This document shows, one piece after another, positions 1 to 19,555 of a DNA stretch of 20,367 nucleotides (positions are counted from its first letter, which is position 1; each line of letters starts with the position of its first letter). This stretch comes from Candidatus Xenobia bacterium (GTDB lineage: Bacteria; Vulcanimicrobiota; Xenobia; Xenobiales; QWHO01). Both the position numbers and the translations under genes were made by a program. The notes beneath the pieces are model-generated. The model saw only the letters and a list, made by a program, of their open reading frames with translations. It was not told the origin of the DNA and made no database searches. The stretch is taken from assembly GCA_045863235.1 (NCBI GenBank), contig BTUM01000119.1, forward strand, positions 1 through 20,367, written 5' to 3'.

Positions 1-1661
<1,661 letters not shown>

Positions 1662-15071: not shown

Positions 15072-15757
15072 TATCAGGCGACAGATTAAACTGACCCCCT
15101 AGCGACACCAAAACTGACCCCCCCCAGAAGAGAAGGAGGTCAGCTATGTCCCATTCGCATGTTCCCTCATCCAGGTGGATTGAGGGGATTTCAACAATTC
15201 AGGCACCAGAAGAAGTTCAAACTATGCTGAGTCTTGCTGCAAAGGGTTGGGGCGCCAAGCGTATCGCGCGTGAACTGGGGTGCAGCAAGAACACGGTCAA
15301 GCGCTATCTAAGGCAGGGCGGCTGGAAGCCGTATAAGGGGCCGAACAGGCAGCCACTGCTGGCCGAAATGTCCGGGTGGCTCCGTGAGAAGTTCCTGAAG
15401 CACTCTGGGAATGCCGACGTTGTGCGGCAGGAACTGAAGAGCGAGAAGGGGGTCGAGGTTTGTCTAAGGACCGTAGAGCGTGCCGTGGCAGACTTTCGCC
15501 GGGAAGATAGGGTTAAGGCGGAGGCGACGGTTCGGTTTGAGACCGCGCCAGGCCACCAGCTTCAGATCGACTTCGGTTCCAAGACGGTGTTGATCGCGGG
15601 AAAGCCTACGCGCGTCTTTGTCTTCGTAGCAACGTTGGGCTACTCGCGGCGGATCTACGTAGAGGCATTCCTTCACGAACGCCAATCGGCATGGTTCCAG
15701 GGATTAGAGGGAGCCTTCCGACACTTCGGCGGCATTACCGTTGAGGTTCTCATCGAT
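15072..15757 (+). mobile_element. IS21-family element A, left end plus truncated istA
   Basis: End TATCAGGCGAC (probably a variant of TGTCA...) with two subterminal repeats GCGACA...AAACTGACCCCC (15078-15099 and 15102-15122), followed by istA. Confidence 0.85.
15146..15757 (+). pseudogene. istA: IS21-family transposase, N-terminal 204 codons only
   Basis: AAGGAGGT RBS; HTH (IARELGCSKNTVKRYL); RFETAPG.QLQIDFG; LGYSRR; AFRHFGG...VLID. Homology ends at the second catalytic Asp. Confidence 0.9.
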
Positions 15758-15783
15758 TATGTTCCGCGCCACGTAATCGATGA
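15750..15783. other. 34-bp inverted repeat with 13-8-13 geometry at the istA/istA fusion junction (putative tyrosine-recombinase core site)
   Basis: TCATCGATTATGT-TCCGCGCC-ACGTAATCGATGA; arms match at 12/13 positions around an asymmetric 8-bp spacer. Confidence 0.6.
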
Positions 15784-16417
15784 CGACCACTCTGGGAGTT
15801 CCGCCAAAAAATTCAAGCATCCGGATATGCGAGCCGATCCAGCACGGGAGATCCTGGGCCCAGCTGGCCTCGGCAAAGGTGTTATTGCTTGCGCCCAGCA
15901 CCCCAACAAAGATCTGAGCCCAAGTGACCTCGCCGGTCTGGGCGTCGATCACCGGCACCTTGTCGCCGGCGTAGTCAACGAAGGCCTTCTCACCGAAGCG
16001 GTGTGTCTGGCGCATGACCGGCTCCACATGGCCGATCCACTCATTGTATCGCTCACAGAACCAGCTATACTCGAAACCGTCCGGGTTAGACCGTTTGTAT
16101 TCCTGCCACAAAAGCTGCAGGCTAACATGCACTTTCGGCCGCTTCAGCTCTCGATGCACCTCGGCCCAGTCAGGAACTGGTCTGGGGTCCGCAGCGCACG
16201 GCTCCACACGATAAAGCCGCGCCTCCAGGTCAGCATCACTCCATTCATCGGGGAGTGGCCACACAACGCCATTCCCCCTGGCGCGCATCAGACAATCGGA
16301 CACAGTAGAGGGGGACACGCGACACGAGGACGCGATGTCTCGATGGGTCTTCTCCTCCTCGAACTTGAGTCTTAACACCTCTCGGGCCTTCTTCATTGAC
16401 ATTTTAGGAGCTGGCAT
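15776..16417 (-). pseudogene. istA: IS21-family (IS408-like) transposase, N-terminal 214 codons only
   Basis: MSMKKAREVLRL; PDWAEVHREL; LQLLWQEY..NPDG..YSWFC..Y; MRQ.H..GEK.FVDYAG; IFVGVLGAS..TFAEA; FFGG.PR.VVID. Ends at the second catalytic Asp. Confidence 0.92.
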
Positions 16418-16468: not shown

Positions 16469-16582
16469 CTGTGATCGGCTTCGCGTGGAAACCGTGATCG
16501 GCTTCCCGTGGAATCTGTGATCGGCTTGCCGTGGAAACTGCGATCGGCTTGCGTGGAAACTGTGATCGGCTACGCGTGGAAT
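16469..16582. repeat. Five tandem 22-23-bp IS21-family subterminal repeats (CTGTGATCGGCTTNNCGTGGAAA)
   Basis: Units at 16469, 16492, 16515, 16538 and 16560 with no spacers, abutting the IS terminus. Confidence 0.9.
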
Positions 16583-16587
16583 ACGCA

Positions 16588-17211
16588 ACCATTGACCCAG
16601 ATGATTGGTGGAGCAACTACGCCAAGGGCCTTATTTATGAGTCCTATCATTCAATGCCTGATCCGTTCATTGTAAACAAACTCTTAATAGAGGCCTTTGT
16701 TCCACACGCAACCCCAGACGTTGAGGCACACGTAGACATAACCCTGACCCTGGGCATGGCTGTCGCTCCGATGGGAGAAGTGGGTGCTGCTTCCTCTGAA
16801 TTAAGCAGGTGGGTTCAGACTCAGCTAGGCAGGTGGCACTGGACTCAACTGCTGGAATCATTCAATCCACTTAATTTCCGTCACCTCTTCAATCTGTCAA
16901 AATGCAAAATCTTTGAACATCACGTCATTCCTCAGGCGGACTTCATGCTTGATTTCCTGAAAGCTGCAGGCGTAAAGGATCCGATCGCTTTCATCGACCA
17001 GTTCGTGATTGGTCTTCCGAAGAGAATACACGATGCGGTTCACATAAAGAAATTCTTGGACCTGAGACCGGGAGGTGGCTTGTGGAACAAAGAATGGTAT
17101 GCCTGGGCTGAGGCGAATGTCGGCGCCAGCGTCGATGAAATCGTGAACCAAGCTCACCAAATGATAAAGAAACATAATCTGGAAAGCTACTTGCCATACT
17201 TCCAAAGATAA
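16588..17211 (+). pseudogene. 5'-truncated polymorphic toxin with a DUF2380/TIGR02269 (SitA6-like) C-terminal domain
   Basis: HHVIPQ...I..F...LP..IH..VH.....GG.WN..W motif; lower GC than the host; the frame runs into the IS end; immunity-type gene follows. Confidence 0.75.
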
Positions 17212-17305
17212 TTCTTGGAACAGGAGGCAAGGAGTAGAACCGGCGAAGACCTTCAAGCCAGGCTCGTTGTCCACGAAGAGTGGGCATCTTCTAAGAGAGG
17301 ATAGA

Positions 17306-18055
17306 ATGAAGATCTATCGCGCGATATCTGCCTCTGACCCATCATACCAGATGACAGGTAGATGCAAGTGGGTTCTACCCGGCGTGGAATGCCCCGACTG
17401 CGGTTCCACCTGGTCAATTATCGGCGCTGACTACCCCTCGGTAGACCTATCGGCTGCTGAGGACTTGATCGATGAGTTCGGGCTTCTTGACCGCCATTGT
17501 ATTGCCTGGCAAGCCTACAAGAGTCTGGAGAAGCGCCTAACTCCCTACACTGGGGCACGAAAGTTGTTGCCTGGAACAGGCATGGGTCCGTTTGAAGGTC
17601 AGATAAGTGCAGAAAAAGGAAACGCCTTTTGGCCGCAGTCCTGGGCAATTTTGATTCGCGACGACACGCTTAAGGCAATCGCCTTAGAACTTGGCCAGGA
17701 GTTATCGCACGGCAGTGCGGTTCTGAATGGCGAAAAATCCAATTTTGTCTACCTAGAAGTCCCAGTGGGTCCGGCTGTTTATGCAGCGAAGCCCAGATGT
17801 GCAACATGCGGTCGAATTTCGAACCGTCCAAAGGACAGAGACTTTGTGGGCATAGATTCTGCCAGCACCTCGGTTCCAGCAGTCTTCCGCGCAGCGGATT
17901 GGCCAACCAGAATCTTTGCGAGTGAAGCCTTCGTGAGAGCTAGTCAATCAGCTGGATTGGATGGAACCAATTTCTTGACCGCCGCAGAAGCTAGAGACCT
18001 ACATATTGCTAAGACCATTATGGGCGACCCCAGTATACTTTCAGAACTTCCATAA
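17306..18055 (+). CDS. Double-CXXCG motif protein (TIGR02264 / SitI6-like immunity protein)
   Basis: GAGAGG RBS and ATG at 17306; KWVLPGVECPDCGSTW...GADYPSVDLS, LPGT.MGP, CATCGR and VFR..DWPT.I..SE.FV. Confidence 0.85.
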   Translation: MKIYRAISASDPSYQMTGRCKWVLPGVECPDCGSTWSIIGADYPSVDLSAAEDLIDEFGLLDRHCIAWQAYKSLEKRLTPYTGARKLLPGTGMGPFEGQISAEKGNAFWPQSWAILIRDDTLKAIALELGQELSHGSAVLNGEKSNFVYLEVPVGPAVYAAKPRCATCGRISNRPKDRDFVGIDSASTSVPAVFRAADWPTRIFASEAFVRASQSAGLDGTNFLTAAEARDLHIAKTIMGDPSILSELP

Positions 18056-18304: not shown

Positions 18305-18718
18305 TTATTCAGGTGGTGCCGTCGGAGCGTCGCTCGGGACGGATCTTGCCTGGAAGAACTCGGCCACCTCCGGCTTGCCGAGCTCGTTGTTCACGACCCG
18401 CAGGGTCAGGTCGACCAGCTCGTCGTCGCTGACGGGGACCTTGTAGCCGTGCAGCTCCAAGAAGACCAGCGCCGCGGCGGTGCCGGTGCGCTTGTTCCCA
18501 TCTACGAAAGCATGGTTCTTGACGATATGGAACAGATACGCGGCCGCCATCTCAAAGACGCCCTTGTGCAGGTACTCGTCGCCGAAGCCGGCCTGGGGCA
18601 TGGCGATCGCCGAGTTCAGCAACTCGACGTCTCTCAGGCCCTTCTCGCCGCCGTAGCGCTCGAGCTGGTCCTGGTGGATGGCGACGATTTGCAGCAGATC
18701 AAGGAAGAAGAAGTCCAT
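18305..18718 (-). CDS. doc: Type II TA toxin, Fic/Doc (death-on-curing) family
   Basis: GG..GLRD..LL.SA...P, AAAYLFHI.KNHAFVDGNKRT motif. Confidence 0.92.
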   Translation of the reverse strand: MDFFFLDLLQIVAIHQDQLERYGGEKGLRDVELLNSAIAMPQAGFGDEYLHKGVFEMAAAYLFHIVKNHAFVDGNKRTGTAAALVFLELHGYKVPVSDDELVDLTLRVVNNELGKPEVAEFFQARSVPSDAPTAPPE

Positions 18719-18756
18719 CAGGATGCTCCTTCCTCAAAAGCTGTGCGCATTCGGTA

Positions 18757-18984
18757 CTACTCTGCCAGACGTCGGAGAGCGCCAGCGTGACGTTCGTTCA
18801 CCTTTTCCAGAGCGGCACGGAAGCGCTCATCGCGCTGTTCGTCGTGAACCGGATGGATGACCAGCGCCTTGCCGTCGGTCGTGATGCTCAATGGCGTGTC
18901 GGCATCAATGCCCAGCAGCTCCATGATTGGGCGCTCTATGATCAGAGCGTAGCTGTTGCCGTGCTTGGTGAGTGTCTTTACCAT
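18757..18984 (-). CDS. AbrB/MazE/SpoVT-family antitoxin
   Basis: LTKHGNSYALII...I...LGI; C-terminal ...H...LRRLAE; directly upstream of doc; GAGGTGGAG RBS. Confidence 0.9.
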   Translation of the reverse strand: MVKTLTKHGNSYALIIERPIMELLGIDADTPLSITTDGKALVIHPVHDEQRDERFRAALEKVNERHAGALRRLAE

Positions 18985-18996
18985 GCTCCACCTCGT

Positions 18997-19023: not shown

Positions 19024-19143
19024 CAGGTATAGGACGGTGTATACCCCCTATCCTGTTGGGGGTCGGGGTTTTCAGACGACGTGGGGGCTGGAGAACAGGC
19101 GGCGCGTCTGAAAGTCTCGGGTGGCGGTTGTGTAGCGCAAGTA

Positions 19144-19181
19144 GGGGTCACCTCACGAAACGGAAAATATCGTACGCTAAG
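19144..19181 (+). mobile_element. 38-bp Tn3-family terminal inverted repeat (Tn21-like), facing right
   Basis: GGGGTCACCTCACGAAACGGAAAATATCGTACGCTAAG fits the Tn21-type GGGG...AAACGGAAAAT...ACGCTAAG pattern. Confidence 0.85.
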
Positions 19182-19206
19182 CCCGACTGCCGACCCGCAA
19201 AATTAC

Positions 19207-19543
19207 AGGGCTTCCCAGGTTCCTGGGCGACCCGCTGTGTGCGCGCGCGTGCTCTCCGACCCCGGCGGGTCGGGCGGACCAGGCCATCTCGGTCCGCCCG
19301 ATGTTGCCTTCAGCCTTTCGGAAGGCTTAGGCCACCGCAGTTAGTGTATTTCGAGGCTCAATCACACGGCTCACCTACTCGCTGTCTACGCTTCGCAAGC
19401 AGGGTTACCCCTTACCCACGCAAGACTCGCTTCCGGGCGGCCGGCCAGCCTTACCCGGGCGGGGTTGGCTACCCGCAGGGTCACATTTCGAAGTTTCGGT
19501 GTTCTACCACCATCCTCTCCAAACCAGGCTTATCCTGGCGCAC
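19207..19543 (-). ncRNA. Group II intron 5' fragment (domain I), truncated; no RT ORF or domains V/VI in the window
   Basis: Minus strand begins GTGCGCCAGG and contains typical domain I strings (CCGGAAGCGAGTCTTGCG, GCGAAGCGTAGACAGCGA, GATTGAGCCTCGAAA, GAAGGCAACA, CCAGGAACCTGGGA). EBS1 CCGAAAGG is complementary to the exon end. Confidence 0.85.
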
Positions 19544-19555
19544 CCGAAAGGACAC

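What the first reader, a model, noticed from the sequence alone, without database searches (positions are those of the whole stretch)
15750..15783. Two different IS21 transposases cut at the same catalytic codon and joined through a loxP-like 13-8-13 site
Seen: istA-A (+) ends ...FGG.T.EVLID and istA-B (-) ends ...FGG.PRVVVID. Both stop at the second DDE Asp, where IstA normally continues D-N, and both now read D-Y-V. The 18 bp between them (TATGTTCCGCGCCACGTA) match neither expected continuation. With the flanks they form TCATCGATTATGT-TCCGCGCC-ACGTAATCGATGA: 13-bp arms (12/13) around an asymmetric 8-bp spacer. Known: this is the geometry of tyrosine-recombinase core sites (loxP, FRT), TTATGT resembles the XerD arm, and RIT-type recombinase elements are reported to insert into mobile-element genes. 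Inference: the footprint of a site-specific element that targets the conserved active-site codons of IS21 transposases, inactivating them; recombination between two such insertions would fuse the halves. Random deletion is unlikely to hit the same codon in both.
Basis: partly seen in the sequence, partly recalled or inferred. Interest (0 to 1): 0.85.

Follow-up and report, generated by a model that had tools for sequence, protein, structure and literature searches.

The report
RIT end scar fusing two transposases
A 20-base leftover end of a three-recombinase (RIT) mobile element welds together the front halves of two different insertion sequences at their active-site codons, which suggests that one RIT end can integrate twice and delete or rearrange the DNA between two transposons.

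Summary
The junction is real: contigs from two studies bridge it, one possibly the window's source. It is a RIT footprint, but not a loxP-like 13-8-13 core. The foreign DNA is a 20-bp two-armed module (15757-15776) between two mirrored 6-bp crossover hexamers. A module of this pattern is one end of RIT elements: 78 of 119 sites have RIT arms on one side. Intact copies of both IS fix the breakpoints: A is cut inside its Asp codon, and B lost its own hexamer (V-P-D became V-I-D), the mark of a 6-bp staggered exchange. Body-less junctions of two transposase 5' halves recur (4 of 119 by profile, one in a complete chromosome). The predicted reciprocal, a module-less RIT between two 3' ends, was seen in 6 of 21 informative metagenome elements (assembly caveat). 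Most likely the RIT's inner core stayed active after insertion into istA-A and integrated again into istA-B, removing the body. The scan had already noted RITs in istA and this module on other DNA; three of my word searches of its notes aimed at fused halves found nothing. No recombination was tested.

The parts
15072..15125 (+). Left end of IS21-family element A, with two 21-22 bp internal repeats
   Evidence: Sequence; other flanks and the empty site meet at 15072-15073 in runs X2-X4 and in G001
15146..15756 (+). istA-A 5' half, cut after GA of the second catalytic Asp codon; the frame runs on antisense over istA-B to 16375 (409 aa)
   Evidence: NF033546 positions 4-184 of 294; intact contigs in X3 and X4 leave the window after 15756 and read on D-N-A-S-A-L-V-K-T-H
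15751..15756 (+). Left 6-bp crossover hexamer CATCGA; whether it is native to IS-A is unresolved
   Evidence: Register from RIT ends; each intact A contig has one unplaced difference, within 15717-15756 in X3
15757..15776 (.). RIT end module TTATGTTCCG-CGCCACGTAA: two outward-facing 10-bp arms meeting at a CG centre; the arms differ at 3 positions
   Evidence: Same pattern beside three tyrosine-recombinase genes in L063 and L075 and at 78 of 119 sites with RIT arms; both arm types seen elsewhere, 57 and 7 halves
15777..15782 (-). Right crossover hexamer, mirror of 15751-15756; it replaces IS-B's own GCCCGA (3 of 6 differences)
   Evidence: Intact B contigs in X2 and X3 match only from 15783 and read V-P-D-N-P-K-P-G; P0001, 98% identical, has Pro here
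15783..16417 (-). istA-B 5' half; native sequence ends inside Val212; the frame runs on to 15704 (237 aa)
   Evidence: NF033546 positions 1-184 of 294
16469..16587 (-). Left end of IS21-family element B with tandem 23-bp repeats
   Evidence: Repeat family D6; other flank at 16587 in X1

Best explanation
The 20 bp are the terminal module of a RIT element whose three-gene body is gone. SHOWN: a RIT of this group reads target-5' / hexamer / module / mirrored hexamer / body / hexamer / target-3', inserted at the second DDE Asp codon of IS21 and other DDE transposases; hexamers are shuffled among the three sites. INFERRED: the module has two equivalent arms, so after one side has integrated, the inner core (module / hexamer / body end) is still the same kind of site as in the presumed circle and can integrate again. 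A RIT first entered istA-A. Its inner core then attacked the Asp codon of istA-B, joined the module to B's 5' half, gave it the RIT's hexamer, and joined the body to B's 3' half. If A and B faced each other on one molecule, this cut out the body, both 3' halves and the DNA between, leaving two dead transposases. That this is a RIT footprint is about 95% likely; the figure given is for the whole route.
For: Module at RIT ends: 78 of 119 unique sites, also in an isolate plasmid, in istA upstream of istB (L379). Inner hexamer equals outer in 44 of 72 ends with GA on both sides; shuffled mean 2.8, maximum 11 in 5000. B's hexamer is foreign. Foreign hexamers on the 5' side also appear in ordinary insertions, read from the residue that family B keeps before Asp (L379, L084). 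Body-less double junctions: L107, L143, L163 (IstA profile both sides) and L141 (Pfam rve both sides). L107 is in a complete chromosome with one module, no body arms and no recombinase trio. Reciprocal product in 6 of 21 informative elements. In another target family, 2 of 6 body-less modules sit between two inverted 14-bp ends flanked by a perfect 9-bp direct repeat, a third 8 of 9, as expected for deletion of an element's interior.
Against: The module's arms differ at 3 positions; 0 of 78 RIT-end modules do (67 perfect, 8 one, 3 two; the search pattern allowed at most 3), which hints at halves from two different RITs. No RIT body, arms or trio in G000 and no parent state 'RIT in istA-A' among the loose ends shown for 4 runs (4 loose ends and 21 pieces were not displayed). 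CATCGA cannot be shown to be native to A. The 6 reciprocal cases are metagenome contigs and could be repeat chimeras; one has the same 3' half at both ends and one ends in a non-transposase. G000 is a 166-contig assembly, and depth in X1 is about twice as high on B as on A, so missing 3' halves do not prove deletion. No recombination was tested.
Confidence: 0.6

Rival explanations
1. Two RIT insertions, one in each IS, were resolved against each other: through a module-body-module intermediate, or by a crossover at the shared CG centre of two different modules.
For: Module-body-module elements between two different istA 5' halves exist: 3 of 20 complete elements (L138, L150, L158), L150 in a single-contig chromosome. 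The two arms here match the halves of two distinct perfect modules seen elsewhere.
Against: B's hexamer would then be independent of A's, yet it is the exact mirror; CATCGA is 7 of 156 hexamers at RIT ends. Asymmetric modules also occur at intact RIT ends (3 of 78 with two differences), so asymmetry can be inherited.
Confidence: 0.3
2. A single loxP/dif-like core (13-8-13) recombined in its 8-bp spacer by a host Xer or Cre-like enzyme.
For: The literal geometry is present; G000 has 17 tyrosine-recombinase matches.
Against: Breakpoints lie outside the spacer, at 15756 and 15783. The variable, exchanged bases in relatives are the flanking hexamers. The geometry occurs 88 times in G000.
Confidence: 0.03
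3. Misassembly, or a fold-back or template-switch event unrelated to any element.
For: Palindromes do cause fold-backs; L159 (same IS on both sides, 61 bp from a contig end) looks like one. X1 may be the source data and X2's bridging contig is only 81 nt at depth 3.3; X3 and X4 show no junction.
Against: An unbranched 713-nt contig in X1 and the X2 contig from another study carry the junction with 0 differences. The module is not a perfect palindrome and matches a RIT end pattern expected about 0.002 times in the genome.
Confidence: 0.03
4. Footprint of a different codon-targeting element, such as the serine-recombinase cassettes that an earlier scan note places in istA.
For: Such elements are noted at the same codons (unchecked note e1-3977199); a palindromic centre would suit a serine recombinase.
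Against: Where the module's other side holds recombinase genes they are tyrosine-recombinase trios; six-base exchange regions fit tyrosine chemistry (established knowledge). I did not search the loci for serine recombinases.
Confidence: 0.04

Closest known systems
RIT (recombinase in trio) elements, ritABC (PMC3414803, PMC2864759, PMC8138268; passages read)
   Same: The module is the end of about 3.5-kb elements with three tandem tyrosine-recombinase genes and terminal inverted repeats; RITs are reported inside radC, an IS66 tnpA and a Tn6049-like transposase gene, with a palindrome overlapping one end.
   Different: Here no recombinase gene or body remains; one module joins two targets. In the passages read there is no module with two crossover hexamers, no hexamer carry-over, no Asp-codon targeting, and Table 1 of PMC10214605 lists RIT specificity, empty site and movement as not tested.
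[quoted passage not shown]
   Same: Tyrosine-recombinase elements that carry 6 bp from the donor site into the new site; one SE insertion was into an IS3 gene.
   Different: They have other gene sets (IntA, Tfp, IntB, Srap; TnpA, B, C). In the passages read no two-armed module or second integration is described.
loxP / FRT / dif cores and Tn916 coupling sequences (recalled, not looked up)
   Same: Inverted recombinase-binding arms around a 6-8 bp exchange region; Tn916 tolerates unlike exchange regions.
   Different: The 34-mer is two half-cores back to back, with exchange regions on the outside, not one core.

Membership tests
RIT element (intact) | Three adjacent tyrosine-recombinase genes | tested here: not met
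   None at the junction and no trio in G000; so this is a remnant, not an element
RIT element (intact) | About 3.5 kb body with terminal inverted repeats | tested here: not met
   No body-arm pattern in G000, 0 matches for two patterns
RIT-derived site | 20-bp two-armed module of RIT ends | tested here: met
   78 of 119 sites with this pattern have RIT arms on one side; trios beside it by Pfam PF00589
RIT-derived site | 6-bp hexamers on both sides, usually mirrored | tested here: met
   CATCGA and its mirror here; 44 of 72 in relatives against 2.8 shuffled (related elements are not independent)
RIT-derived site | Trios beside the module belong to the RitA/RitB/RitC subgroups of the archetype CH34 element | not tested
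   No comparison with the CH34 proteins was run; assignment rests on gene number, overlaps, size and ends
RIT-derived site | Bound and recombined by RitABC | not testable with these tools
   Needs an assay
loxP/FRT/dif-type single core | Strand exchange within the central spacer | tested here: not met
   Breakpoints at 15756 and 15783, outside the spacer
IS21 family (elements A and B) | IstA transposase | tested here: met
   5' halves match NF033546, 151 and 144 bits, below the 160 cut-off for whole proteins; full-length relatives P0001 and P0121 pass
IS21 family (elements A and B) | Ends with multiple internal repeats | tested here: met
   Left ends only
IS21 family (elements A and B) | Complete DDE triad, istB and right end | tested here: not met
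   No IstA 3' half in G000 by profile or tblastn; no istB among the window's ORFs by eye; istB was not searched genome-wide

The most novel reading that the evidence does not exclude
RITs are double-attachment-site elements: the 20-bp module is a separable two-headed adapter, and module and body are exchanged as independent units. RITs would then routinely fuse, delete or invert DNA between any two DDE transposons at their active-site codons, a widespread and overlooked engine of genome rearrangement and of IS inactivation, with a 32-bp minimal site that tolerates unlike exchange regions.
Probability: 0.4. Interest if true: 0.8.

Novelty: new variant of a known kind. Interest (0 to 1): 0.62.

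Why it matters
RIT movement had not been reproduced in the laboratory as of PMC10214605 (2023). This junction, with both intact parents visible in public data, gives base-level breakpoints, a 6-bp carry-over and a minimal site. With the four natural states seen (normal insertion, module at both ends, module only, body only) it yields a concrete reaction scheme that a two-plasmid assay can test. It also shows how a parasite of transposases can disable two insertion sequences in one step and rearrange the host genome, and it gives a 20-bp signature for finding such scars.

Tried and rejected
Blastn of the junction against plasmids gave no informative match, best E about 0.1. The 34-mer is unique in G000. 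A multi-copy 12-mer look-alike in four contigs belongs to an unrelated hairpin repeat. Two viral scans with IS-context patterns gave no IstA or trio: 30 loci, none IstA, and 11 loci, none with a recombinase hit. A side scan for the 14-bp target family returned 9 loci that I did not analyse. No close intact IstA-A protein was found, best 80% in the longer class and 70% in the shorter one, so A's native hexamer stays open. The exact module occurs in 1 of 301 genomes of the phylum, G000 itself; the ten one-mismatch matches are no more than the reversed-pattern control (the tally includes unpublished G252, on which no claim rests). The sequence following IS-A's empty site was not found in G000. 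No reciprocal body was found in the five genomes beyond the two known double-module elements and one weak one-mismatch hit. Of 11 plasmid loci, 5 showed a module at an istA Asp codon and none a module-less body between two 3' halves; several had other end types or were broken. X1 has no cover at 16646-16787, which proves nothing. Structure and complex prediction were not run: no protein question bore on the verdict.

Full report
OBSERVATION. Two IS21 istA 5' halves face each other, 15146 onward on + and 16417 downward on -, each with its left end. Both stop at the same profile position, 184 of 294; that this is the second Asp of the DDE triad is established knowledge, recalled. Neither has a 3' half or a second copy in G000. 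The 13-8-13 shape is common, 88 times in G000, so it carries little weight alone.

REALITY OF THE JUNCTION. 18 public runs from 18 studies hold part of the stretch; I laid the best 4. X1, possibly the source, has an unbranched 713-nt contig over 15100-15812. X2, another study, has an 81-nt contig over 15732-15812 with no difference, at depth 3.3. X3 and X4 show no junction. These are short-read contigs, not long reads.

BREAKPOINTS. Intact IS-A contigs (X3, X4) leave the window after 15756 and read on D-N-A-S-A-L-V-K-T-H. Intact IS-B contigs (X2, X3) match only from 15783 and read V-P-D-N-P-K-P-G; P0001 (98% identical, 518 aa) agrees. Pro precedes the Asp in 86 of 89 B relatives in which the motif was found (31 of 120 did not match my pattern); A relatives have Val 64, Ile 34, Leu 20, Phe 1 of 119. 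So the foreign DNA is 20 bp (15757-15776) plus a hexamer (15777-15782) that mirrors 15751-15756 and replaced B's GCCCGA. Caveat: each intact A contig has one difference whose place is not listed; it may lie in the hexamer (my estimate about even odds). Then CATCGA would be foreign to both and would come from an earlier target.

WHAT THE 20 BP ARE. A viral scan for the module pattern with no flank constraint gave 24 loci; 2 lie directly beside three tyrosine-recombinase genes. 78 have RIT body arms on one side; 36 of these face an IstA 5' half by profile, and many others look by eye like other DDE transposases. Because GA was forced, this shows that a large RIT group uses Asp codons, not that all do: the two viral RITs have other targets. 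The body begins with two more 10-bp arms of the same consensus. An isolate plasmid shows the full layout in istA upstream of istB (L379). Earlier scan notes had pointed to a 6-bp crossover and a built-in 20-bp palindrome; I tested both here.

HEXAMERS TRAVEL. Inner equals outer in 44 of 72 ends, against 2.8 when shuffled (kin are not independent). Of 25 trio-bearing elements examined, 20 showed a far end. In 17 it continues into a transposase 3' half: all three hexamers alike in 6, two alike in 7, all different in 4. In 3 it meets a second module and another istA 5' half (L138, L150, L158). This is what 6-bp staggered exchange without a homology requirement would give (inference), and resembles the 6-bp footprint of SEs and Tn554 (PMC10214605).

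THE SCAR RECURS. Of the 119 sites, module-only junctions between two transposase 5' halves are L107, L143, L163 (IstA profile on both sides) and L141 (Pfam rve on both sides). L097, L098, L112, L122 and L168 fit by motif only; L159 may be a fold-back. L107 lies in a complete Sorangium chromosome that has one module, no body arms and no trio. Leaving L159 aside, hexamers are mirrored in 2 of these 9, so mirroring is not automatic. Six further sites have the module between two inverted 14-bp ends; 2 have a perfect 9-bp flanking direct repeat, 1 has 8 of 9, 3 have none.

THE RECIPROCAL. If the inner core integrates again, bodies without a module between two 3' halves should exist. A scan for body ends joined to 3' halves gave 128 metagenome and 2 viral stretches (129 loci read, 126 unique ends). 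22 elements showed both ends; 1 ran off its contig. 15 had a module at the other end (7 by script, 8 variant palindromes by eye). 6 had none: 4 between two different transposase 3' halves (L256, L265, L304, L311), 1 with the same half twice (L250), 1 ending in another gene (L281). The pattern favours such elements twofold, and metagenome assembly can join repeat copies; none was found in 11 isolate-plasmid loci.

MECHANISM. Shown: identity of the module, breakpoints, foreign hexamer on B, existence of the four states in assemblies. Inferred: the circle, the chemistry, the order and the route. Best route (0.6): insertion into A, then a second integration of the inner core into B. With convergent targets this deletes the body and both 3' halves; with direct targets it inverts. 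Main rival (0.3): two insertions resolved against each other, favoured by the 3-base asymmetry of this module (0 of 78 at RIT ends), disfavoured by the mirrored hexamer (7 of 156). Deletion is likely but not proven: G000 is fragmented and B has a further context in X1. Both truncated frames keep their N-terminal helix-turn-helix and lack the catalytic Glu; any effect on intact copies is speculation.

COMPARISON. It works like a RIT attachment site; it is not an intact RIT, and not a loxP-type core. Papers: I read passages found by term search in PMC3414803, PMC5737581, PMC8138268, PMC10214605 and PMC2864759, no whole text and no supplement. Ricker et al. 2013 and Van Houdt et al. 2009 were seen only as citations and may describe ends and targets in more detail. 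Five literature searches listed nothing on module-only junctions, second integration or Asp-codon targeting; the library lacks most subscription journals. In the scan's notes, RITs in istA and the module were already recorded; word searches aimed at fused halves returned nothing, as did searches by sequence and place.

VERDICT. Real; a RIT-made fusion of two IS21 elements; new variant of a known kind. Interest 0.62: the family and its targeting are known or already noted, but this case supplies parent-verified breakpoints and a testable two-integration model.

Noticed in passing
window 19050-19544 (-): 5' part of a group II intron: Rfam RF02005 at 19250-19467, 163.7 bits; no intron ORF seen next to it.
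   Followed up: partly
window 16588-18055: DUF2380 fragment beginning at IS-B's left end, followed by a Gmx_para_CXXCG gene; looks like a toxin-immunity-type pair whose 5' part was cut off by IS-B.
   Followed up: partly
window 18305-18985 (-): Fic/Doc gene with a short upstream ORF that may be its antitoxin.
   Followed up: no
window 15072-15073, run X2: X2 holds the fused junction but shows IS-A's left end with another flank, and the window's flank running into the empty site: the fused unit may lie at another locus there.
   Followed up: no
window 15333-15338 and 15970-15976: Further nested insertions in other copies: an IS-B-type end inside IS-A in X2, and another element inside istA-B in X1 whose letters also appear in G003.
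   Followed up: no
L082, L114, L125, L161, L169, L180 (module positions): 48-bp palindromes made of a RIT module between two 14-bp ends, two with a perfect 9-bp flanking repeat; L142, L177 and L191 show RIT ends at the same 14-bp target. The target element is unidentified.
   Followed up: partly
L139:4503, L099:4503, L124:4503, L166:303: Body-less modules with a transposase 5' half on one side and unrelated DNA on the other, suggesting off-target second joins.
   Followed up: no
L381:5175, L382:4793, L388:6070: Module at the end of the third recombinase gene rather than the first, i.e. bodies flipped relative to the module, in isolate plasmids.
   Followed up: partly
G000 contigs C3, C45, C102, C163: A roughly 110-130 bp non-coding repeat with internal inverted arms, at least four copies; unrelated to the junction.
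   Followed up: no
window 1-1661: Long protein made largely of 9-bp GNA-type repeats.
   Followed up: no
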